Positions 671-48,900 of a stretch of 64,000 nt of DNA are shown here, one piece after another. Within the stretch, counting starts at the first letter, position 1. Every line of letters begins with the position of its first letter. The position numbers and the translations under genes were made by a program. Origin of the DNA: the human T2T-CHM13v2.0 reference genome, Homo sapiens. The stretch lies in assembly GCF_009914755.1 (NCBI RefSeq), contig NC_060928.1. One strand, given 5' to 3'. The notes beneath the pieces were generated by a model. It did not search any database and had not been told where the DNA came from. It saw only the letters and a program-made list of their open reading frames with translations.

Positions 671-1603
671 AAAAATTAGCATTTATCATCATACATGCTG
701 GAAAGGAAGTGCTGGTAATGAAAGGTAAGCATTTTCTTTGCTCTCTTCCTTACAGTCCATTTGAAGCAAGATCTGTGTCATCTCGAAGTCTCTAAATGTG
801 GTCACATTTTATTTCTATTGTTAATTCATGGCAGGTAAGGCAAGGCACAAATCTGACATCAATTAGAAGTGGTGTTTGCCAATCTGTGCCAGGCATTGAG
901 CTAAGTGTTTTATGTAGGTAATCACATTTAAATCTCACCAAATCATGTTGAGCATCTTGAAGAACTAACCTGTCCAAGATCATATAAAAAGCAAGTTTCA
1001 GAATCAATGTTTAAACCGAGTCTATCAGATTCAAAATCATAATCACTCCTACAGCAGTCTATACAAAATCTAGAAATTCCAGAGATGACTGTAATTAGAA
1101 AAGAATTAAACTAAAGATACACAAAGTTCCCAGTCATAGTCTCTGAGGCTTTAGTGCCTGGAAAGAAGATCCAATATAATAATAGCATTATCAAAAATTA
1201 TTTTGCTATTTTATTCAACAGTATACTACTTTTAGGCATATAACTCAAAAGTCGATTTCAGAATAATTAAGAGTTGAACCACTAAAGAAAATATACATTG
1301 AGAAAATTTGTGTAAAAATAATATTTTAATCTAAAGAGAAATAATCTACTTACAAGAAATTCAAGTGGGATGTCGCAGGACTATTTCTTTGCCATCATTA
1401 GAATGCAGGGTTAGACTAATAATTCTCTGGTACTAACCAAATCTAAATAGTATAATAAAACTGAAATAACTAAATCTAAATAGTATAATAAAACTGTACA
1501 GCTTCTCTTTGAGGTAGAAAGTTCCCAGCAAAGGTTTTAGAGAAGCAACATCAACATCAGAGTTTAAGAGAAGGGCATTTTATACATTATAAGAGCTAGT
1601 TTA

Positions 1604-7888: not shown

Positions 7889-8261
7889 TGATATGGTTTG
7901 TCTGTGTCTTCACCCAAATCTCATCTCAAACTGTATTTCCCATAATCCCCACACGTCATGGGAGGGACCCAGTGGGAGGTAATTGAATCATGGGGGCGGT
8001 TACCCCCATGCTGCTGTTCTCATGATGGTGAGTGAGTTCTCAGGAGATCTGATGGTTTTATAAGGGGCTTTTCCCTCTTTGCTCAGCACTTCCCCTTCCT
8101 ATCATCATGTGAAGGATGTGTTTGCTTCCCCTTCTGCCACGATTGAAATTTACTGAGGCCTCCTCAGCCATGTGGAACTGTGAGTCAATTAAACCTCTTT
8201 CCTTTATAAATTATCCAGCCTTGGGCAGTTCTTTATAGGACCGTGAGAACCGATTAATACA
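7889..8261 (+). mobile_element. THE1-type MaLR solo LTR
   Basis: Termini tgatatggtttg...cccaaatctcatc and ...attaaacctctttcctttataaatta...taataca. Confidence 0.9.
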
Positions 8262-10435
8262 AGAGACCACTGCTGTTTTCATTACTATAGGTTAATTTGA
8301 CATAGTCATAATGGGGAATTCATGTTTTAAATTTATTTTTAAATTCTTAAGTTAATTAAAATATGTTCAACATACTTGTTGGCGTTCTTTCTGGATACAA
8401 AAAGATTGTGTGTAAATACTTTATCCTTTTCATCCTCATCTTAGAATTATAGCACAATAGCTAGCATGTAATAGATAATAAATATTTGTTGAATGAATAA
8501 TGATTTGAAAAAAAATACCAGTGGGAAAACATAAATGTTGACAAGTAGTTCAAGACTGTTGGGATAAACTTAGCTAGAGTGCAGGTCATAACTACCCATC
8601 TTTATAAGGAAGCTGAAAAGGGAAGTATGAGGACAGGGAGAACAATGACTTTCTCTCTCAAGCTTGACTTAAACCACCAGGAAAGTTCTTAAAGCCAAAG
8701 CCTTTCTCAGACTCTCACCAAACCATAAGAGTCAGAAAAATGGTCGTTTTCAAAGGAGTAGAAAATTCTGTACAAAGTAAACAACAGCTGAAGCAGGAAA
8801 GGAACATACATTTTCTCACTTAGTGGCACGCAGGCAAAACAGAACATAGGACCAGCTTGGTTATTTTCTTTGAATACAGGAAATTTCTCAAACATGATAT
8901 ATAGCCATGTTCAAGTATGAGCATAATTACAGAGTTCCCTCTGTACCCTTTAATCAGCCTATAAACTCAACAGCAGAGTCTTGTCAGAATAGGCCCAAAC
9001 TGGAAAAACCACATGTTTCTCTCTCTCAGAAAAGATACTAAGCTTAGGATGTGAGCAGCGCACCATGAGAGCACAAGGTGTTCCTTCTCTCTCAAAGTCA
9101 GTCCCAGAACTGAAAAGAAAAACGTTCTCAGTTGGCATCACTGCCCTGTTTTTCATCCAACAAAGAATATTCGCTATGAATTTTCTCAAGCAAAAAGTCA
9201 CTGAATTCTTTTAACAGGGGCAGACTCAAGCACTTTTTATTAAGAGTAACAAATCAATCATGAAATGAACCTCATGAAATATGCTTTATAGGTAATGTGA
9301 ACAAATGTACAATGTGACAAATGATTCAAGAAGTATAATTATCTACAAGGCCTGTTTAGAAGGAAAAAAAAAGCTGTACCAAATTGATGCTTTAGCTGCT
9401 TTTGCTTATACTTTGCTGTGTTTATAACTACATTTCATTTAATCATTAACTGTATCTTTCTGTCATTAATTCCCTTTACATTTTTAATGACTAAATGGGA
9501 TTCTGGAGTGATTAGCAGATAATCTCACACTTTTTTGTAAAAATGTGCATTTAGCCATAATAGCAAAGCTCCATTTATGGTACACAATTTCTTTCAAATA
9601 ATATGCAAATATACTGCAAATATTTCAACACACACAAACTAGAAGTACAAAAAAATTAAGATATTAAAACAATAAATTATATTTAAATGCATATTACATT
9701 TAAATAAGTTTAATAAAACTTTAAATAAACTTGTTTGAAATAACACTTTACCTTAAATGAAACTTTACATTTAAATGCATCATTTTATAAATCATTCTCC
9801 TTCATTGGGAAGTTATTTTTTTAATTATTCTAAAAAGTTTTAAAATCTCATCAAACACATGCTGTGGATTTAGGATTGGGAAGAAAAAAATGTGTAGAAT
9901 CAACATGCTTTAACATTCAATGTAAAAGTGTTCTCAGTAATCTCAGCTCTCAGTAATAGAAAAAGGAAAGAATATCACCCATGAAATTACACCTAATTTT
10001 AGAGGATACGTTTCAGTCCACCTTCGTATGGAGGCACCACTTGTGGTTTGACACAGCACAGTTCCACTGTGACGTTTGTCACATTTTTCTGAGCCCTGCC
10101 TTCCCACAGAGAAATAGGCCATTTCATGCCGTAACCTTCCATAAAATCTTTCAGAAGAGCTTTTTAATAATTTGGAGGTTATAACAGAGATGGTGATCTA
10201 ACCAACCTAGACAAAAGCCTACGGTCAAAATTAAACCTGATTGAAATTACAAGGAAAAGCCCTGGGTGAAAGCACTCCATTTATGGCTGGTTAAAATTCA
10301 TAATGTATTTGTTCCCAAGGTTCTCAAGAGAGAAGTCACAAATCTGTTTGTTTCTGGCCATAGGTTTTGCATCCAAATTTAAGGCTGCTGACTAATAGGT
10401 AATGGTAGTCAACTAATCATTGTATGGCTGCGGAG

Positions 10436-10589
10436 TTTTGTTTGTTTGTTTTTGTTTATTTTTAGAGACAGGATCTTCAGGATCTTGCTATTTTACACAG
10501 GCTGCCCTCAAACTCCTGGGCACAAGGGATCCTTTTACTTCTGCCTTCCAAGTAGCTGAGACTACAGGCGCATGCCACTGCACCCAGCT
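10436..10589 (-). mobile_element. Alu monomer (FLAM-like)
   Basis: Single reverse Alu arm with T-rich tail. Confidence 0.8.
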
Positions 10590-10707
10590 GTAGAGATTTT
10601 TTTAAAAACCAACAAATTCAATAACATATAATCAAGTATTACTTTATAAATATGTTAGGCCATACCCGCTTCCTTCTAGAAAACGATTTCTAGAATAAGA
10701 GAAATGG

Positions 10708-12584
10708 GCCAGTCAATACTCTCAGATAATATAACAGGAGAGTTCTGATAGGCATCAAACCAATTTCATTCCTCTCATAAAGAACCCCTCTCTGCTCTGC
10801 CCCGAAATCAAATCCTTTCCATGCCTTTTTTCCCAGTCATGAGGAGTTGAGAATTCTCCTAGTCCTAGCTCCTCACCTTCCAGCCAAAGTTCTGGACAGC
10901 ATCATCTACACTACACTACTCATCTCCCAGGAGGCCCTCAGCCTACTGCTGTCTGCCTTCTCAGGCTGTCATGACAGCAAGCATGTTCTTATAAATGGCA
11001 AATGTCACTAAACCTAAGGGGCAACTTTCAGCCTTAATCTTCCTTGACCTCTAAGCAGCAACAAGGCTGATAACTCCCTCTCTTCCCAGAGTTTCTGGAC
11101 AGTGCACTCCCATGCTTTCCAGTAGAATATACAGAAAAAGCCCACAATCTCTGAAGCTAGGATGCCTGGTTTTAAATCAGCTCTACCATATACTGGTTGG
11201 TGACAGTCTCTAAGTTACTTAACCTTTCTGGGGCTCACATATTTTTCATCTGTAAAATCAGGGATCACAGTAGCACCAACCTCTCAAGAAGATTAAATTG
11301 ATCTAATATATGTAAAAACACATAACACAGTGCCTGGCACATAGTAAGTGTCATATATGTTTTAACTTTTACCACTATTATTATTATTATTATCATTATG
11401 CTCCTTCTCTGGTCACTTCTTCTTTGTTGGTATTTGTCAAGGTTTGTTCCTAGAATCTCTCTTTGCCCCATTATCCTCCTATTTAGTGATGAGGACTCAC
11501 CATAACCTCCAGCCCATGCCTATTTCTTGAACAATAAACATATGTATGCAACTGCCTGCTGGATATTTCAAATTCAACATGTCCACAGATGAATTCAACT
11601 TCTTCCTTCCAAGCCTGTTCCTCCTCAGTGTTCTCTTTCTCTAAAATTGCAACCACCTCCCACACAGGCATCCAAGCCAGAAAGCAAGAATCATGCCTGA
11701 CTGTCATTCCCCTCATCTTCCAAATGCAAACGAGTCCTGCAGATTCTACCTACCTCCTTACTGTTTTTGAGAACATCCCCTCCTCTTCTAACTGTGTCAG
11801 TCTAGTCTAGGTCACCACTATGTCTCTCCTGGACCACCTTGTACCTTCACTGTCAGTCTTATCCTTCCCTAAACATTTTCCACATAGCAAAGAGAGCACT
11901 CTTCAAATGCTCAAATCTGCTTGTGTCTGTGACTCCACTTAAAAGTCTTCCATGTCATAACTAATATGGCCCACAGAGCTCTTCATAATGTAATTTGACC
12001 CTGCATACTTCTTAAGCCTCATTTATTATCCCTCTCCCTCTTACACAACTTTCATCTCTTCAAATCTCTGTCCCCACTGGACCTTCACATATGCTGTTTC
12101 CTCAGCCTGGAACTTTTTTCCACCTCACAAACCTCCCCACTTCATCTGACTATTCCTATCCAAACACGTTTCCTCAAGGAGACTTCCTCTGACACCCACA
12201 GTATATTCAGTACCCTATGCTCATTAAAAAAACAACAAAAAAAAAAACTAACTGCAGTCTCCTGAAAATATTGTTTTCTTATAATTTATTCAAATATTGA
12301 AGGTTAGCATGCAAATAAATAATTGGAAACTGTGATACCTACTATGAAAGAAAATGTCTGTTTCCCTCACCAGACTATAATCTCTTGAGGACAAGACCTT
12401 TTCTGAACTCAATGCCTAGAATAATAGTCTTTCACATGTATGTTATATATATATTTGTATGTAAATCTGTAGAAGAAGAGGAATATGATTAATGCCAACA
12501 GGAAAATACATAATGGAAAAGAAGGAGAAAGCATCATTGCCTATCAGAACTTACCTGTTATATTATCTGGGAGAATTGACTGTC
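10708..12584. repeat. 47-bp inverted repeat (arms 10708-10754 and 12538-12584)
   Basis: gccagtcaatactctcagataatataacaggagagttctgataggca versus the reverse complement of the second arm, gacagtcaattctcccagataatataacaggtaagttctgataggca: 42/47 identical, ungapped. Confidence 0.9.
10900..12430 (+). mobile_element. Degenerate L2 containing a MIR at about 11125-11380
   Basis: L2 motifs (tcaaattcaacatgtcc, ccagactataatctcttgagg) and MIR motifs (tcatctgtaaaat, agtgcctggcacatagtaag). Confidence 0.7.
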
Positions 12585-12635
12585 AATACCCATCTCCACA
12601 CACCAACCCTGCGCCTCTAATTTCATCTCCATAGC
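12555..12635 (-). other. Predicted 81-nt cassette exon in the intron downstream of the 115-nt exon
   Basis: Acceptor ttacctttcatttcgttcag|GCT and perfect consensus donor CAG|gtaagt. Confidence 0.45.
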
Positions 12636-13084
12636 CTGAACGAAATGAAAGGTAATCTATCAAATAGCTGAGATAATCCCTGATACATGTTTTGAATTGG
12701 TCAAGAAATATTAACAATTTGTTGTACATGTTACATTGCAGTAGACATCAAACTCTATTCAAACTAAAAGACTGCAAAGGTTGTAGAAGCTAAAGGCAAA
12801 TGCCATTATATGAAACAAGTATAAGACATTGGTATACAAACAATATGTGAAAAATAATTTTTTAAATTTAAAATCTGTCTGTAATGATTCTGCCTTAGAG
12901 TCCCAGGTAATAAAAGATAACCAGATAAGTTTGCTAAATAGAAATGGCGGACTAAAAATACGGTTTTTTAAATATTTTTGCTTTTCATCTTCTTGCTCTT
13001 CCTCTCTCACCCCCTTCTTCTTCTTCTCTTACTCCTTTCTTTCTCCCTCTTTCTCCCCATGCCCTGCCATAAATAATATAGTAC

Positions 13085-13470
13085 TGTATTAGTTTTTTTT
13101 TTCACACTGCTATAAAGACATACCTGAGGCTGGGTAATTGATAAAGAAAAGAGGTTTAATGGACTTACAGTTCCACATGGCTGGGAGGCCTCAGGAAACT
13201 TACAATCATGGCAGAAGGTGAAGGGGAAACAAGGACTTTCACATGGCGGCAAGAGAGAGAAGTGTAAGCAGGGGAAATGCCAGATGCTTATAAAACAATC
13301 AGATTTTGTGAGAATTCACTCACTATCATGAGAACAGCATGGGGGAAACCGCCTCCATGAGCCAATCACCTCCCTCCCTTGACATGTGGGGATTACAGGT
13401 CCTTCCCTCCAGACGTGGAGATTACAATTGAGATGATACTTGGGTAGGGACACAGAGCCCAACTGTATCA
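13085..13470 (-). mobile_element. MSTA-type MaLR solo LTR
   Basis: tgtattagt...gaggcctcaggaaacttacaatcatggcagaagg...gtatca; TSD agtac/actac. Confidence 0.9.
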
Positions 13471-14177
13471 ACTACATTATTCATATAATGTCAGAGATGT
13501 CCCCCTGACTGGAGATTTGTCAAGGAAATCAAACTAGAATCAAAAGATTTTTTAATATAAAAAGAAAATTATAATTTGTATTAAAATCAAATAGTAAATG
13601 GATAAACAAGGAAATGTCTTGGGAAAACAACTAGAACATGAAATTACTCTATAAATTAATGTCAGATAATTGCTAAGGGCAGAATCAATTTTATGGAGGA
13701 GGGATAACACAAAAATGTTTTAAATTGTTTTAAGTTGGTGATGTGGGTATTTTGGGTAAGATAAACCATTATAACTAACTCCAGAACTTGGTCTTAGCTA
13801 TTTGAGACCTGATCTTAAGCAGAATTACATGTTTTAACTTAAGCCTGACAACCCCACTTTTTCTTGTAAGTGATCCTTGAGAACTTATTTGGAGCTTCTA
13901 TCAAGTAATTGGGGCTACCCACAGACTACCGAACAGAGGACAGTCTTATCCAGGAATTCCTTCCACTTTTATCAAGTAACAGTGTTGGAAGGGACAAACA
14001 TGGAATCATCAAGAGAGGGAGAATACAAGCCTAGGACATCATATCAAACAAGGTCTTTGCTCAATGACATGCCAGGGAGGTCTTCCCTCATCCCTCTATC
14101 TGAAACTGAAACCCTCCACCACACTCTCTATTCCATATTTCTGCTCAACATTCTCCTCGACCATACCTACCATTTAA

Positions 14178-14654
<477 letters not shown>

Positions 14655-15599
14655 TGAATGAATAAATACAATAAAATCTATTCTTGGAATCAGTATGGTA
14701 ACTGACAGTGCATTTCAGATTACCTTTACCTCTACATGGTTCAGTTTAATGTAGCTAGAAGTCTTGCCATAGATTAAATTTTAAAATGATTTTCTGCACT
14801 AATGATAAGAGGTTGGTGGTCACCTTGATCAATAAGGAAGTGCTAATCACATATGAGTCAATTCAGATTAACTCCCCAGAAATTACTCTATATCCACATT
14901 TATGTGAGTGGATGTCCAGAAGAAAGTATATAGTAAGTCTCTTTGTTTGGAGAATCGTAAAGGAGAAACTGCTTCACACCAAAAACAGAATGGGGAAATA
15001 GAAAGTTGTGAGAATTATGGGTCCTCAAAATGGTAGACATCTGCACCCACCATGATCAGATAATCCAGAGCAAGCTTGCAACCTAGGAGGAGGGACCATG
15101 GCAAATAGTCCTTGTATAAGTGCCTGGATCAAGAGCTGGAGTAGAGGACACAATTAATCTGCCATTGCCATTCCACATGCAGTAAAGAAAATGTTGCTTG
15201 CTAATTCCCTGGAGAACCCAAGAACAGATGTGCTGAGGCCAACTGAATATCACCCAGAATTCCCTACCTAGCACTCAAGGCTCCATTGATTTGCCCAGAT
15301 AGATGTCAAATATCCAGTGCTATCAGACTGGTCATTTTTTCCTTATCAGATATGCTCTTACAATATACATTTGTCATTTTTCAGCTAATTGCTCAAATTC
15401 CAATTTCCTCCAATCCTATCCATCTACTTTCCTTAAGATATAATGGCAAGACATCTTCCTCTCGGCCTTCCTTGACTAAACTAATCTCAGATTTCCTGTG
15501 GAAATTATAAAAATAATATCTTAGATTTGCAGAGAAGTTGAGAATCTACAGAGCACATTCACAGTAGTGTCCCCCCACTTCCCCTCCCACACACACACC

Positions 15600-22156: not shown

Positions 22157-23156
22157 ACTGTGTGATATTTAATCTTCCAAGACTCTACCACAGTAATCTG
22201 CCCATTGAAAATGTCTGTTAACTTCATGTAAATGTGTTTATGTTGATATCATACCTAAAGTGACCAAGGCACCAATAGTTTCACCTGATATGTTAGAAAA
22301 TCCCAGTAGAGTTTAGAAATCATTATTTCTAAAGGCAAATTTTAAAAGATTTCTCTTATAAGTAAATTAATAAACAAATACTTGTGCACACTAGTCTTTC
22401 AATAGCAAAGGATAATTTTGGGATAAAGAATGATGCAAACCTGGAAAATTGATATAGTCAGTTTGGCTGGCTATGCATAAACTATCTTCCTTATGTTTAG
22501 CACATCTTTAATAATTAGAAGTGACTTCCTATAGCTAAAATATCTTATTTATTGATTCAGAGTAAATAAGAATGGGCAGAATTAAGCTGAAGACAACAAA
22601 ACGGGGAAAGTTAAAGCAAAATTGTGCATTAGCAAGTCCCTCTCTAATAGCCTTCTGAGCCCCCTCTTCCCCTCGTAGCTGCTTTGCATCCTCATGGAGT
22701 CCTTCACTAGCCAAGGCTTCCCTCACCAAGGTACCCCACTTGGATGAGACCGCTTAGGTATCATCTCATTCTTTAATTCAATCTGTGTGCAACTTAATCC
22801 ACATAATTTTTACAATTAAAGAAATTTAGACACCATCTATTACAATTCTCTCATATACAGTTGAAGCTCAGCTTTGTCTTATCTTGAAATTATTCTTTGC
22901 TGTTGAAGAACTGGTGTGCACAAATATTTGTTCATTGATTACTTATGAGAGAAATCTTTTAAAATTCACCTTTAGAAATCAGGATTTCTAAACTGTACTG
23001 AGATTTTCCAATATACTCGGTGAAACTATTGGTGTCTTAGTCACTTTAGAAATTAAGACTTGCCCAAGGGAATATTAATTCATGACATAGCTGGGATAAA
23101 AATCTAGCTTCAAGGGCTCTTCCTTTTCCAGAAACTATATGAATAAATCTTCTAAA

Positions 23157-25381: not shown

Positions 25382-27167
25382 CTGGGGCTACTTATATCGG
25401 TTTTACCAGGTTAAATACTCCTAAAGATTTAATTTCCCATCTTGGTAACTGCTGCAGCCATTGAGAAGCAAGACAGAACAGCACCACAGAATTAAACATT
25501 TCTGAATATTCTCTTATTCATCTCATTTGTAAGGTATTTGATTCCACAAATCTGTTATGCTAATTTCTATTTCTCTTCACTTTGATTGTTACTGTTACTA
25601 TTCCTTGGAATTCTTATCCATATACTTACCTGGAATTCAAACCATATCAATATTTTAAGGCTCTATTTAGGTCCAATATTCATCTTTAACACTACAAAGA
25701 AGACAGCACAGTAATAAGCATATGCTCCAGAGTCAGAATCATGCACCACTAGCTGCATGACCGGTGGCACATTACTAAATCATCTGTGCCTTGTCTTCAC
25801 CTTTTATAAAATAGGAATGTTCAGTAGTATTGCTGTCAGGCTCAAGTGAACTAGGACATGCAAAGCACTATGAACAGTGCTTGGCATGAAGTAGGCACTC
25901 TATAAATGTTAGCCACTATTGTAGTTCTTTATTATAACCCCATTCTTCCTGTACTTCTCTGAATAACTATAGATTCATAAGTAATAGGGACCTTAGATCC
26001 TACAGTCATTTAGTTCAATCTCCCACACAAAGTAGTATCATCTCTAAAAAGCTCTTCATACTTGGTCAACCATGAAGATGGTTAAATACTTTCAGTGATG
26101 AAAACTTTACTACTTTTCAAAAAGCACAGGCTCAAACAGTTCTTATAATAAAAAAAAAATTTATGTGCAGTACCTACTATCTACTCTTTGGTCTCTTAGT
26201 TCTGCCTTCAGTACAACTTACAAACAATCCTGCATCCTCTAGCCTCTTTCATATGAAAGCCGTTAAATATTGAAGGCAGTTGCTTGGTAAGTTGCACTCT
26301 CTTTCACTCTCTAGCGCTGCCACCCTCCACCTCGATCTTTCCTCTTCATTTCTCTTCTCCGGGCAAAACACTATAATTTTTCTTGACTGTCCACCACAAG
26401 ATATGTTTTCTATATCTTCACCATCCTCAACAAAATCTTCAGGACTCATTTCATTTTATGAAAGTCATTCCTAATAGAGGGCACTAAAAGCTACACATAA
26501 TATTCCCAACAGGTTCTGAATAGTAAAAATGACAGAACAACAGTTTGTTTAGGAAAGTAAGGCAAATTTTGGAAAAATTTACTTAATAACAATCATCAAA
26601 AAACAATGCTGTTAAATGAGCAATTAAGTTAAATTTTTCTTCTGAGAGATTGGCAAACAACATAGGCTATTACCTAACCTATTTAAATAAGATTATGGAC
26701 TCTCTGCCAGGCTGCCTTCCACATTGTATCCAGAGACAGAATTTGTGATGCCTTTGTGTAAACTGCTTTTGTCTCTATGGAAGTCTCTTTAGCTATGTGT
26801 TTTTTTCTTCATGTGTCTGTCTTTGTCCTGCTTCTGCTTCTTTCTGTATATCAATCTCTTTCTCATTCTTCTTTCTTTTGTCAATCATTCAATAAATATT
26901 TATGCAGTGCCTATCAAGTGTCAGGCGCTGTATGAGGTATAAGAAATTCAAAGATGAGTCTTGCTCAAAATACCCCCTGGCTAAGGTGGGAGGCAAAGCA
27001 GACACAAACAGATAATAAACAGATAATAAGATACTATGGTAATACAGTGAGGTAGATAATGCACAGGTTACTGTGAGAACACCAAGAATGATTGAATGCT
27101 GGATGAAAGGGATCTGAGAGGTTTCCAGGAGGAGATAGAATCTTATGAAATCTAAAGTGATTCTAAA

Positions 27168-32007: not shown

Positions 32008-32122
32008 CACAGCTTGTATGGTTTCTCATCTATAGGAAACGGGTCTAATTCAACAGTTTCTTGCATAAGTTGCCATAGTGAAGATCTGAGATGGGCCTGC
32101 TGTTGGTGTTTCTCACACTAGC
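32008..32122 (-). other. MAPK10: MAPK10 (JNK3) 115-nt non-coding 5'UTR exon
   Basis: Minus strand reads ggctttgctttcag|GCTAGTGTGAGAAACACCAACAGCAGG...CCATACAAGCTGTG|gtgagt, with canonical acceptor and donor. The exon matches, from memory, the MAPK10 mRNA leader just upstream of the exon carrying the MSLHFLYYC start, which lies outside the window. Confidence 0.9.
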
Positions 32123-37131: not shown

Positions 37132-37540
37132 CATTCCGTGCCTGAGAACTACGATCCTGATCCGGCAGTGTTTGCCCCAGAAATCCTCCCTACTTGTTTT
37201 TCATTAACCACATTCCAGACTAACATGGAAGAGATTCTTTGGAGATATGGAGATTGTTTAAAATTAACGATGGACAGGTGATTTCCAAGAAAACCCAATC
37301 TTAAACTCACTCAAGCCCCTAGGAATTGAGGGGTGAGGACAAAAAAGGAAATTTGTAAAAATGAAAAAAGAAAAGAAAAAGGTAAGCATATAGCAAGCAC
37401 CACCCACCCCCATAAAAATAAAAAGTGAAGGGGAGGTTAAAGAAAATAGAAGAAGAGTGGCTTGCTGAATCACCCTCTTTCACTGCCTGGAAACCATTGT
37501 GCAGCGTGATGCTGCCTGTACCATTGTGGAACCTACCAGA
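37132..37540 (-). other. MAPK10: MAPK10 alternative first exon (5'UTR); 3' boundary exact, TSS approximate
   Basis: Donor GGCACGGAATG|gtaggt at 37132/37131, 5.0 kb upstream of the 115-nt exon. Unique sequence immediately downstream of an X-box/CRE cluster. The 5' end cannot be determined from sequence. Confidence 0.7.
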
Positions 37541-45925: not shown

Positions 45926-48900
45926 CAATCACTTTTAATTTTTTTCTTGCTCAGGAGTCAATTTTACATTCAGAAAACAATTGTGTTCACATCAAACAAA
46001 AGTAGATAAATTGGTCTCCTGAAAGTTCTTCCTAGTGGACAGAGCACTACTATTAGAATTCAACGGTACTTTGAACCAACTGTTATTAAGCTTATAAAAG
46101 TACGGGTTTGCTTTTGCTTTTGTTTTGGAATGGGAACCTCCCACAACTAGCAAAATTATGTCCCTTTGTGGTTAAACGTACTTTGATTCCAAATACAAAA
46201 TATCTGCCACAATAAAAACAGTTCCACACAACTTTTCAGTATCCTAATAGCATTTTTTTTTTGAAAGTCTGAATGTAGTTCACAAATGATAACGGGGGGA
46301 GGGAAAGTCTATTGTAAAATAATATCAAAGAAGATTAAGCCTCCTCAGGTAGCAGCAGCTTAAAAAATCTAATTAGTGTATGTGTCTTTTGAACAATGAT
46401 GCTAATAGAAAACGCCCTTTTCTTAGATCCCAGCAGAAGCTGGTGTGTGAGATAAAGAAAGTTATTCTTGCCAGACATCCTCAGGTTTACTCACACTTCA
46501 ATCCATACACATCTGTAGCATTTCCAATTTCCCTTATCCTAGAAGCATGAAAAAAGCATGAAGATACCATGGACTACATTTGAGTTTGGTCTGGAAATTC
46601 AACTTCCCACTCTGCGGCAATTCCTGCAACCTTTAATGGGGCTATTCTCACCTCTGACCGTAATTTGTCAGCATGGTGCTCAAAAGGCAGTCACTGAGGT
46701 AGGCTAAGAAGCAAAATATGAGCCAAACATTGTGTAATTAAATTAAAATAAAAGTTTAATAATTTTTTATAAACAAGTCTGCCATCACTACTTGCTAAAA
46801 ATTTCTAATATTAAAGAGCTTATTTTTAAACATTTATATGAGAAGACTTTTTCAATCATCTAACTAATTGGTGAATTCTGGGTCTGTCTTATCAAACAAT
46901 AGTACAAGTAATAGTAATACATGATGATCGTATACAAACACTTAAAAGAGTAATAATCAGAATTAATAATATGAATTTGGTGTATTTAGTCTTACATTTT
47001 TAAGCCAAATACTTATCAGCATAAATTTATATGTGTAGCTTATGTCTGGTCTAAAAATCTGCTGGATTTTCAAATCATTAACAAAAAATATTTTCTTAGA
47101 GTATCCTAAACATGCTATTTCACCTATATTGCAATGCTACATTTGACAAGGAAACAGGAAAATAAAAATCTGATCTTGAAAATTGTCCAAATTCATGAAA
47201 ATAGTGCAATGATAATAGTAGTTAAATTCAACATATGCTTTATATGAGTGCAAGATAATTAAAACATTTTTGAGATAATGCATAAATACTTTCAAAGCTT
47301 ATTAGAAATATGTATAGGCCAGTCTGTGTGACCTGAGCAGATCGCATGGCCTCTTCATTTCCCAATTTAGGCACTGTCATAATAGGGATAATAATATTCA
47401 CTTCACAGACTTTTCATGAGAAACAAATTAGATAATGTATGTGACAGTGCCTAGCACAACCCTTAGTAGATGACAGTCACTCAATAGATATTGAACATTC
47501 TGATTGCAATGAGAGATGTAACCCACACTTAGATTAAAATTTCCTGACATAACGTTGTAAGCTATGAACATTGTCCAATGGCCCAGAAGCATTAATTTTC
47601 TGTTGTTTGATAATGTTCTTAAAGTGTATATTCAAAAGGAGATACAGTTGATCATATGCTATTTGGAGGTGTTGAAGCAGCACTATAGAACTAATAATAA
47701 ACTTGAAGAAATTTGAGCCTATCTGCCAGTCTACACCTGAGATACTATTCAGGACATCAGTGATTCTTACTGGAAATTTCCCAGATAAAATTCAGCCACT
47801 TTGTCAGCAAATATTCAGAGACATAGTCTTTCACAAGAAATAGATAACAAATTTAAAAAAAAAATAATTGAGCAAAAATAGTGTCACTGTTAGAGCTGTG
47901 TGACATTCTTTTCATTTAATTAAAAATTAATTCAACCAGCAAATCACTGAGTAGCATATCAGTATAAAACTCTATGCTAGAGATTAGAAAAAGAAATCTG
48001 AGAAATGGTCACCATCAAAAAGGAGTTTGTGATCTTATTGTTAGACTGGACCACTTGAAAGAAAAAATATCTATAAATGAATCCCTACACGTGAAACAAA
48101 AAAAAAATGAAGTCTCCTGTTTGAAAAGGAAAAACCTCAACACAGTCATGCAAGTAGAAAATATGGATCTCAAATCCTGTATTTACCTTGGGAAGAAGCA
48201 TAGTCAAATAAAAATGGAAACCTTAGTCTCAGTTCCACTGTGACTATGACTACCCATCAGATGTTGGGCAGATAGTGGCTCTGTCGACATGTTTCTTCAT
48301 CTACAATGTATCAGGTCTAGATCACATGATAATTATGGTTCTGTAACAAAATGGAAAAGAGAGTCTTCAGATGACTCAATGAACAGAATTTAGACAGAGA
48401 TTTCATAAGAATAGACTTAAAAGTGACGGAAAACATATCTTGTTTGGATGAGAGTAAAGAGATCACTTTCCTAGTTAAAACAAGAAGGAAAGCAGTGGAA
48501 TATCTTCAACTATATTGTCTTCTAGGCAAAATATACAAACCAAACATTTACATTGCAAATTAAAACATAAGGCAATGAGAATAGGATTCACTGCTAAAGT
48601 CAGTTCTGGCTTTTTGAGTCATTTAACAAATACTACCTTATGATAAGTCAAAGTCGCTATCATTTTTATCATTATTATCACAAATGTCATCATTAATATC
48701 ATCATTATTTTAGCTATTATCTGTTGAAAGCATCCTCTGTGCCATCACTGGCTGATGATTTACAGACATTTGCTCTAGTCACACAGCATTTCTTGATGAT
48801 TATCTCTAACATCTATCAACCATCCACAGTGTGCCTGGGCCCATGTTACAATACAATCCTCACTACTGTATCATAAGGTAGGTAGAGTTATTGTCCTTAT

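What the first reader, a model, noticed from the sequence alone, without database searches (positions are those of the whole stretch)
10708..12584. 47-bp long-range inverted repeat that would pair over a perfect 5' splice site
Seen: 12538-12584 and 10708-10754 are reverse complements at 42/47 positions with no gaps. Neither arm resembles a repeat family I recognise, and the 1.8 kb between them is mostly ancient L2/MIR. In the minus-strand pre-mRNA the first arm covers the last 30 nt of the predicted 81-nt exon plus CAG|GUAAGU and 11 more intronic nt. The second arm is transcribed about 1.8 kb later. Two of the five mismatches fall on donor positions +2/+3 (U-U and A-C; A at 12552 opposite C from 10740), and another A-C mismatch involves the A at 10722. 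Established: A-C mismatches in long duplexes are favoured ADAR sites, and exon/downstream-intron duplexes (ECS-type) can control splicing. Inference: an RNA-structure switch, sensitive to elongation rate or editing, that hides a uORF-bearing exon of JNK3. Alternatives are a neutral short inverted duplication or TIR remnants.
Basis: partly seen in the sequence, partly recalled or inferred. Interest (0 to 1): 0.8.

Follow-up and report, generated by a model that had tools for sequence, protein, structure and literature searches.

The report
Unique inverted repeat in MAPK10 intron
A 47-base stretch in a non-coding intron of the brain kinase gene MAPK10 (JNK3) is repeated backwards 1.8 kb away and could fold over a strong but unused splice site, but it is most likely a harmless local copying accident and nothing here shows that it controls splicing.

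Summary
10708-10754 and 12538-12584 are reverse complements at 42/47 positions, with an ungapped 45-nt core at 91%. Arm 2 covers the last 30 nt of an exon-like 81-nt segment, a perfect CAG|GTAAGT and 11 intronic nt on the MAPK10 sense strand. The pair is not chance and not a dispersed repeat: whole-genome searches find only these two places. Its edges are sharp, it has no target-site duplication, and the loop holds an older multi-copy repeat, so TIR remnants are unlikely. As RNA the arms give -65 kcal/mol (shuffled partner -13.2 +/- 3.3) and pair with P about 0.98 in a 2-kb fold. The candidate exon has the best crude splice signals on the sense strand in 264 kb, but the antisense control gives one equally good candidate. 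A second genome-unique inverted repeat lies 10 kb away. RefSeq lists no exon here. Conservation, editing and exon use could not be tested. Best reading: a neutral local inverted duplication that happens to cover a pseudo-exon donor. The splicing-switch idea is physically possible but unsupported (about 8%). If real, it would be a new member of a known kind.

The parts
10708..10754 (-). Arm 1 of the inverted repeat. It is the downstream arm in the MAPK10 pre-mRNA, transcribed second.
   Evidence: It is genome-unique apart from arm 2.
12538..12584 (-). Arm 2 of the inverted repeat, the upstream arm in the pre-mRNA. It covers 30 exon-like nt, GTAAGT and 11 intronic nt.
   Evidence: An 801-nt query around it finds only itself and arm 1 in the genome.
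10755..12537 (-). 1783-nt loop between the arms.
   Evidence: Only 11171-11399 has multi-copy matches.
11171..11399 (.). Old multi-copy interspersed repeat inside the loop. I call it MIR-like from recall of the MIR core.
   Evidence: all 17 non-self matches, 69-90% identical, fall within query 342-570.
12555..12635 (-). Exon-like 81-nt segment (pseudo-exon) with an internal 24-codon ATG...TAA frame. It is not annotated.
   Evidence: The hub's RefSeq table lists no exon here.
12549..12557 (-). Perfect donor consensus CAG|GTAAGT.
   Evidence: one of 2 such 9-mers in the window, with 0.58 expected by shuffling.
12636..12675 (-). Acceptor region: 15 of 18 pyrimidines at -20..-3, no AG in -14..-3, C at -3, then AG.
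12575..12587 (.). 13-nt local palindrome (6+1+6) straddling the outer edge of arm 2. As a result the 8-mer at 12582-12589 repeats 10712-10719 in direct orientation.
   Evidence: Read. The small hairpin appears in the local fold. Its significance was not established.

Best explanation
The pair is a single-locus, non-transposon inverted duplication of about 45-47 bp. It lies in intron 2 of MAPK10 (numbering of NM_138982.4), a 5'-UTR intron. One arm was copied from the other in reverse-complement orientation by a local DNA-level accident. That accident was either a templated insertion or replication template switch, or the footprint of a small 1.8-kb inversion made with staggered breaks. The pair has since picked up 4-5 differences by neutral decay. 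Because both arms are transcribed in one pre-mRNA, they are predicted to form a 41-bp imperfect duplex that closes a 1.8-kb loop. By position this duplex covers the donor of a strong but unannotated pseudo-exon. When it forms it would hinder U1 binding and could be a substrate for ADAR. Both effects are incidental by-products and not a selected switch. Shown here: the repeat, its uniqueness in the genome, its sharp edges, its predicted thermodynamic stability, and the splice-signal strength of the pseudo-exon. Inferred: the copying mechanism, the neutrality, the age, and any effect in cells.
For: Uniqueness in the genome:
- The arm sequence has 2 places in the 3.1-Gb genome: 141-nt BLAST at E<=10, 191-nt, and 801-nt around arm 2.
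- A 31-mer pattern with up to 3 mismatches has 2 places, and the reversed-pattern control has 0.
- The outer 26-mer with up to 3 mismatches has the 2 arms plus 1 place with 3 mismatches on another contig, about what chance gives.
- The same tool does find old repeats. It gave 2229 candidates for the 7SL-like element at 10436-10611 and 17 matches for 11171-11399.

Sharp edges:
- Two local-alignment scorings of 901-nt segments returned exactly the 45-nt core.
- Anchored extension over 80 nt scored 0 on both sides.
- No target-site duplication flanks the arms (read).

Context and base rates:
- The loop holds an older multi-copy repeat, which does not fit a transposon interior.
- Such orphan inverted repeats recur locally. 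In 264 kb of MAPK10, 6 inverted pairs passed (>=35 nt, >=85%, <=5 kb apart). Four lie in multi-copy repeats. Two are orphans: this pair and 22255-22426 / 22879-23049, which is also genome-unique.
- A pseudo-exon as strong as this one also occurs on the antisense control strand, 1 sense against 1 antisense at donor >=8/9 and acceptor >=15/18.
- Template switching is described as a one-step source of inverted repeats, hairpins and short inversions flanked by inverted repeats (PMC5453318, abstract and passages).
Against: - No outgroup genome was available, so lineage-specific origin and neutral decay are not shown.
- If both arms predate primates, 91% identity next to a much more diverged old repeat would argue for constraint.
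- The duplex covers the single best pseudo-exon donor on the sense strand in 264 kb. That exon-like segment has stronger crude signals than the three annotated exons in the window, whose donors match 6/9, 6/9 and 7/9. Yet it is absent from RefSeq, which is what masking would predict.
- The 1.8-kb distance is an open question for the template-switch route: I did not establish the distance range of the events that PMC5453318 describes.
- No clear junction microhomology was established.
- The genome search is blind to very old families. The parts of the loop that I take to be L2 gave no matches.
Confidence: 0.7

Rival explanations
1. The duplex is a selected RNA-structure switch. When the downstream arm pairs with the exon/donor arm, U1 cannot bind and the uORF-bearing 81-nt exon of JNK3 is skipped. 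Slow elongation or editing shifts the balance.
For: - The duplex is very stable: -65.0 kcal/mol against -13.2 +/- 3.3 for 500 shuffled partners.
- The arms pair with P about 0.98 in a 2051-nt equilibrium fold, and 7 of the 9 donor positions are paired.
- The candidate exon has a 9/9 donor and a 15/18 pyrimidine tract. It is the only such sense-strand candidate in 264 kb, yet it is not annotated.
- Conserved complementary regions are reported to be enriched over inactive and cryptic splice sites and enriched in A-to-I sites (PMC8052449, section 10 read; passages).
Against: - There is no evidence that the exon is ever used. It is absent from the hub's RefSeq table, and 2 papers found for MAPK10 + 'cryptic exon' are unrelated by title.
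- No editing report was found (listings only).
- The antisense control yields an equally strong pseudo-exon, and orphan inverted repeats recur nearby. By rough inference a handful of such overlaps is expected genome-wide by chance.
- Both transition differences give A-C mismatches on the sense RNA, not G-U wobbles, so there is no sign of selection for pairing.
- Editing A12552 would leave a usable GURAGU donor and would strengthen the duplex, not open it (inference).
- The donor emerges 1.8 kb before its partner, so U1 can bind first (inference).
- The MFE also pairs the donor elsewhere when arm 1 is left out, so 'paired in a fold' is weak evidence.
Confidence: 0.08
2. The arms are the terminal inverted repeats of an old DNA transposon, or two oppositely oriented fragments of one dispersed repeat family.
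For: Two short inverted arms with sharp inner and outer edges bounding about 1.9 kb is the anatomy of a TIR element. The genome search cannot see very old families.
Against: - There is no third copy of the arm or of its outer 26-mer beyond one chance-level hit.
- No target-site duplication is present.
- The interior holds an older interspersed repeat and nothing recognisable as a transposon.
- Two independent ancient fragments would not be 91% alike with flanks that show no similarity at all.
Confidence: 0.04
3. The pair is an old, conserved long-range RNA structure with a role other than hiding the pseudo-exon. Possible roles are shortening the effective length of the >32-kb intron, acting as an ADAR/dsRBP docking site, or marking a processing site.
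For: The stability is far beyond the strongest published class of conserved pairs, group IV at <= -30 kcal/mol (PMC8052449, section 6). The pair lies within one intron, which is the favoured configuration in that catalogue. Genes with such pairs are enriched for nervous-system development terms.
Against: No conservation data are available. The catalogue files that could list the pair were too large to read. The duplex is long and nearly perfect, as a young duplication would be, whereas catalogued conserved pairs have a median length of 13 nt.
Confidence: 0.06

Closest known systems
[quoted passage not shown] 2021, PMC8052449; sections 6 and 10 read)
   Same: Two complementary intronic stretches less than 10 kb apart in one gene and inside one intron. 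Such pairs are reported to be enriched over inactive and cryptic splice sites and in A-to-I sites.
   Different: PCCRs are defined inside phastCons-conserved elements and have a median length of 13 nt and median energy of -17.2 kcal/mol. This pair is 45-47 nt at -65 kcal/mol, its conservation is unknown, and it looks like a duplication and not like convergent complementarity.
SMN2 intron 7 ISTL1 long-distance interaction (Singh et al. 2013, PMC3783185; search listing and start of abstract only)
   Same: An intronic long-distance pairing acts as a critical regulator of SMN2 exon 7 splicing (start of abstract). From recall, the pairing involves sequence next to the 5' splice site, lowers exon inclusion and can be targeted by antisense oligonucleotides.
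   Different: ISTL1 is short, spans a few hundred nt (recalled), and is proven by mutation and probing. Here the span is 1.8 kb, the exon is unannotated and nothing is proven.
ADAR exon / editing-complementary-sequence duplexes such as GRIA2 Q/R and R/G (recalled, not looked up)
   Same: The end of an exon pairs with a downstream intronic complement. A-C mismatches are favoured editing contexts.
   Different: Those duplexes are deeply conserved and recode a protein. Here no editing site is documented and the exon-like segment is non-coding.
Inverted repeats and hairpins created by replication template switching (Loytynoja and Goldman 2017, PMC5453318, abstract and passages; Monttinen and Loytynoja 2022, PMC8794818, listing only)
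   Same: A reverse-complement copy of a nearby sequence arises in one step, with sharp edges, no transposon features, and possibly an inversion flanked by inverted repeats.
   Different: The paper describes the process as local; I did not read what distances it covers. Here the arms are 1.8 kb apart.
Intronic inverted Alu pairs that form dsRNA (recalled)
   Same: Intramolecular dsRNA in a pre-mRNA formed from inverted copies, and a usual ADAR substrate.
   Different: This pair is not Alu, is much shorter (45 nt against about 300 nt), and is unique in the genome.

Membership tests
DNA transposon with terminal inverted repeats / dispersed repeat family | Further copies of the arm sequence elsewhere in the genome | tested here: not met
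   Searches find only the two arms. One search finds one extra place with 3 mismatches, which is chance level. Families diverged beyond about 30% could escape.
DNA transposon with terminal inverted repeats / dispersed repeat family | Target-site duplication directly outside both arms | tested here: not met
   The flanks read share no 2-9 bp direct repeat at either the 45-nt or the 47-nt boundaries.
DNA transposon with terminal inverted repeats / dispersed repeat family | Interior derived from the element itself, not from older host repeats | tested here: not met
   An old multi-copy repeat sits at 11171-11399 inside the loop.
Long-range RNA structure regulating splicing (PCCR type) | Stable complementarity (<= -15 kcal/mol) within 10 kb in the same gene | tested here: met
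   -65.0 kcal/mol, 1783 nt apart, pairing probability about 0.98. This is a prediction for naked RNA at equilibrium.
Long-range RNA structure regulating splicing (PCCR type) | Both arms evolutionarily conserved, with compensatory substitutions | not testable with these tools
   No other mammalian genome is held (one search states that G000 has no relatives). The PCCR catalogue files were too large to read.
Long-range RNA structure regulating splicing (PCCR type) | Disrupting the pairing changes splicing and restoring it reverses the change | not testable with these tools
   This needs an experiment.
ADAR exon/ECS editing duplex | Documented A-to-I site within the duplex | not testable with these tools
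   No editing database is on hand. The search for MAPK10 + A-to-I + intronic gave 2 papers, unrelated by title.
Cassette (alternative 5'-UTR) exon of MAPK10 | Transcript evidence or annotation | tested here: not met
   The hub's RefSeq table lists exons only at 32008-32122, 37132-37527 and 48187-48340. GENCODE and RNA-seq were not available.
Cassette (alternative 5'-UTR) exon of MAPK10 | Usable acceptor and donor at a typical exon length | tested here: met
   81 nt, 9/9 donor, 15/18 pyrimidines. These are crude consensus counts, not MaxEnt scores.
Local templated inverted duplication (template switch or inversion footprint) | Two copies only, in cis, reverse-complement, with sharp edges on both sides | tested here: met
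Local templated inverted duplication (template switch or inversion footprint) | One arm absent, or the loop inverted, in outgroup species | not testable with these tools
   No outgroup genomes are held.
Local templated inverted duplication (template switch or inversion footprint) | Microhomology at the copy junctions | tested here: inconclusive
   An 8-mer direct repeat (10712-10719 / 12582-12589) and a 13-nt palindrome sit at the outer edge of arm 2. No statistical support was established.

The most novel reading that the evidence does not exclude
A strong 81-nt 5'-UTR exon of JNK3 that carries a 24-codon uORF is kept silent, or conditionally silent, in neurons. A 41-bp duplex with a copy of its own donor region 1.8 kb downstream does the silencing. 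The inverted duplication either killed the exon in evolution or made it a switch that responds to elongation rate, helicases or ADAR, and antisense oligonucleotides against 10708-10754 would unmask it.
Probability: 0.07. Interest if true: 0.6.

Novelty: new member of a known kind. Interest (0 to 1): 0.3.

Why it matters
If the duplex really gates the pseudo-exon, it would be a clean human case of a splice site silenced by a long-range copy of itself. It would sit in a neuronal stress-kinase gene, carry a uORF that could lower JNK3 translation, and offer an obvious antisense handle. It would also show how one mutational step, an inverted duplication, can switch an exon off. If the duplex is neutral, as I think, the value is a caution. 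Genome-unique inverted duplications occur about twice per 264 kb here, and strong pseudo-exons occur about once per 264 kb per strand. A genome-wide scan will therefore meet a few such overlaps by chance.

Tried and rejected
- Cross-species conservation could not be tested. No other mammalian genome is held, so the age, the ancestral arm and any compensatory change remain open.
- PCCR catalogue membership could not be checked. The large supplementary files of PMC8052449 could not be read, and they may list this pair.
- Extending the homology failed. Two local-alignment scorings and anchored extension gave nothing. A possible extra 8-9 nt beyond a 6-nt gap on the outer side, seen by eye, did not score above zero.
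- The TIR or transposon reading is rejected: no third copy, no target-site duplication, and an older repeat inside the loop.
- The reading of two ancient L2 or MIR fragments is rejected, because 91% identity with no similarity in the flanks does not fit.
- The arms and the candidate exon overlap none of the 10 Rfam matches at E<=1 in 8000-15000.
- A recursive-splicing site is rejected. The base after the acceptor AG starts GCTATG, not GTAAGT.
- A circular-RNA-promoting pair is rejected, because no annotated exon lies in the loop.
- Literature: MAPK10 + 'cryptic exon' gave 2 papers, and MAPK10 + A-to-I + intronic gave 2 papers. None is relevant by title, and none was read.
- A wider base-rate sample failed.
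- In one search the arm-2 match did not appear, because only 40 of 2229 candidates were scored. The narrower query recovered it.

Full report
**1. The observation**

- 10708-10754 and the reverse complement of 12538-12584 agree at 42 of 47 positions without gaps.
- The repeat finder reports the ungapped core as 10710-10754 / 12538-12582: 45 nt, 91% complementary, 1783 nt between the arms.
- The mismatches lie at 10709/12583, 10718/12574, 10722/12570, 10739/12553 and 10740/12552.

MAPK10 is on the minus strand, so arm 2 (12584 down to 12538) is transcribed first and arm 1 follows 1.8 kb later.

On the minus strand, 12555-12635 is an 81-nt exon-like segment.
- It is preceded by a tract with 15 of 18 pyrimidines, no AG in -14..-3, and CAG.
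- It is followed by GTAAGT, a 9/9 match to CAGGTAAGT.
- It contains an ATG...TAA frame of 24 codons.

The repeat is far beyond chance. A 32-nt core pattern with up to 3 mismatches has 2 matches in the window, and none in any of 100 shuffles.

**2. What the arms are not**

The whole T2T genome could be searched. The arm sequence has only two places in 3.1 Gb.
- A 141-nt query at E<=10 finds 2 places.
- A 191-nt query round arm 1 finds 2 places.
- An 801-nt query round arm 2 finds 2 places.
- A 31-mer pattern with up to 3 mismatches finds 2 places, and the reversed control finds 0.
- The outer 26-mer with up to 3 mismatches finds the two arms plus one 3-mismatch place on another contig, about what chance gives. 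The control finds 0.

The tool does see old repeats.
- All 57 non-self matches of the 801-nt query 10300-11100 fall at 10436-10611, with 2229 candidates of which 40 were scored. Rfam marks that stretch as 7SL/Alu-like, below the gathering score.
- All 17 non-self matches of the loop query fall at 11171-11399. I take this stretch to be MIR, from recall.
- Caveat: the loop parts that I recall as L2 gave no matches, so families more than about 30% diverged are invisible to this search.

The homology stops dead at both ends.
- Two scoring schemes on 901-nt segments returned exactly the core.
- Anchored extension over 80 nt scored 0 on both sides, against a mean of 1.46 for 300 random pairs.

There is no target-site duplication. 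No Rfam family touches the arms: 10 matches at E<=1 in 8000-15000, and none overlaps them.

The TIR and dispersed-repeat readings therefore fail three defining tests: no third copy, no target-site duplication, and no transposon interior.

**3. What it most likely is**

The evidence points to a local inverted duplication: two copies only, in cis, reverse-complement, with sharp edges and an older repeat lying between them. Either one arm is a templated copy of the other, or the pair is the footprint of a small inversion. Template switching is described as a one-step source of inverted repeats, hairpins and short inversions flanked by inverted repeats (PMC5453318, abstract and passages). Whether such events reach 1.8 kb I did not establish from that paper.

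A 13-nt palindrome at 12575-12587 and an 8-mer direct repeat (10712-10719 / 12582-12589) sit at the outer junction of arm 2. They may be a trace of the copying event or may be chance.

A rough age can be inferred. Four differences in 45 nt, at a recalled rate of about 1e-9 per site per year on each arm, give a few tens of millions of years, with a binomial range that is very wide (roughly 12 to more than 100 My). The arms may therefore be primate-specific, but this is not shown.

Such orphan repeats recur here. I searched 264 kb of MAPK10 (the window plus 200 kb upstream of it in contig coordinates) against itself. Six inverted pairs passed the filter of >=35 nt, >=85% identity and <=5 kb apart. 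Four lie in multi-copy repeats (depth 29-40). Two are orphans: this pair and 22255-22426 / 22879-23049. The second pair has 172/171-nt arms at about 86% identity and a 452-nt spacer, and it is also unique in the genome.

**4. What it would do as RNA**

- The arms hybridise at -65.0 kcal/mol. With 500 shuffled partners the value is -13.2 +/- 3.3, minimum -27.2.
- The minimum-energy fold of the 2051-nt minus-strand RNA pairs them over 41 bp.
- In the partition function the pairs have a mean probability of 0.98. Donor positions -3..+1 and +4..+6 are paired, and +2/+3 are open.
- This is far beyond the strongest class of catalogued conserved pairs, which is <= -30 kcal/mol (PMC8052449, section 6).

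These are equilibrium predictions for naked RNA. When arm 1 is left out, the minimum-energy fold pairs most of the donor with other loop sequence, so being paired in a fold means little on its own.

The following points are inference.
- The donor is exposed for the time Pol II takes to cover 1.8 kb, so U1 can bind first.
- Editing of A12552 would leave a GURAGU donor and would close the A-C mismatch. That would strengthen the duplex and not open it.

**5. Is the exon real, and is the overlap meaningful?**

The hub's RefSeq table lists no exon at 12555-12635. The pair lies about 19.4 kb downstream of the non-coding exon 32008-32122, in an intron that runs off the window.

By crude consensus counts the candidate beats the three annotated exons in the window, whose donors match 6/9, 6/9 and 7/9. 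It is the only sense-strand candidate in 264 kb with a donor >=8/9 and an acceptor >=15/18. The antisense control strand also gives one such candidate, at 756-834. With looser cut-offs the counts are 10 against 3, 21 against 9 and 36 against 27, sense against antisense. Perfect CAGGTAAGT occurs twice in the window against 0.58 expected, and 16 of 100 shuffles reach 2.

A rough estimate from these very small counts runs as follows. About 0.16% of bases lie in an orphan-repeat arm, and about one top-tier pseudo-exon occurs per 264 kb per strand. Over about 1.2 Gb of genic sequence (a recalled figure), this predicts a handful of such overlaps in the genome by chance. The overlap is therefore suggestive but not compelling.

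Conserved complementary regions are also reported to be enriched over inactive and cryptic splice sites and in A-to-I sites (PMC8052449, section 10; passages). About 12,000 stable long-range structures, mostly outside conserved regions, are reported from RIC-seq (PMC10691357, abstract).

Against it, both transition differences give A-C mismatches and not G-U wobbles on the sense RNA. I also found no paper on a MAPK10 cryptic exon or on intronic editing (two listings each, unrelated by title, not read).

**6. Comparison and verdict**

The pair works like a PCCR-type long-range structure over a cryptic donor, and like SMN2 ISTL1 in principle (PMC3783185, listing only). Membership needs conservation, compensatory change and a splicing effect, and none of these could be tested here. 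The catalogue files that might list the pair were too large to read.

My odds are as follows.

| Reading | Odds |
|---|---|
| Neutral local inverted duplication with incidental dsRNA | about 0.70 |
| Splicing switch | about 0.08 |
| Conserved structure with another role | about 0.06 |
| Transposon remnant | about 0.04 |
| Unassigned | the rest |

Novelty: at most a new member of a known kind. Interest: 0.3.

Noticed in passing
window 22255-22426 and 22879-23049: A second inverted repeat in the same MAPK10 intron. Its arms are 172/171 nt at about 86% identity with a 452-nt spacer. It is unique in the genome, has no obvious target-site duplication, and the 795-nt minus-strand RNA folds at -307.5 kcal/mol. 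It is a better candidate for long dsRNA and hyper-editing than the finding itself.
   Followed up: partly
window 12575-12587, with 10712-10719 and 12582-12589: A 13-nt palindrome (6+1+6) straddles the outer edge of arm 2. It makes an 8-mer direct repeat with the start of arm 1. It may be junction microhomology left by the copying event, or chance.
   Followed up: partly
window 10436-10611: A multi-copy repeat about 100 bp outside arm 1. It had 2229 genome candidates, and the scored copies are 68-90% identical. Rfam gives a Metazoa_SRP hit at 10479-10588 (minus strand, 37.5 bits, below gathering), so it looks like an Alu-type monomer.
   Followed up: partly
window 13797-14093 (minus strand): The annotated RN7SKP96 pseudogene matches Rfam 7SK over the full model at 34.3 bits, just under the gathering score of 35.
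   Followed up: no
window 25624-25632 (minus strand): The only other perfect CAGGTAAGT in the window is also on the MAPK10 sense strand. By my crude criteria no strong acceptor lies 40-300 nt upstream of it.
   Followed up: partly
window 756-834 (plus strand): An antisense-strand pseudo-exon of 79 nt with a donor >=8/9 and an acceptor >=15/18 pyrimidines. I used it as the control that matches the candidate exon.
   Followed up: no
window 8125-8249 and 13099-13223: An inverted pair of 125 nt at 78% that brackets the whole finding. Both arms lie in locally multi-copy sequence (depth 5-9 in 264 kb), so they are probably two copies of an interspersed repeat. The pair could also form dsRNA in the pre-mRNA.
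   Followed up: partly
window 37527 (minus strand): The annotated exon 37132-37527 has no AG before it, so it is a first exon (a transcription start) of NM_138982.4. The finding therefore lies in intron 2 of that transcript.
   Followed up: no
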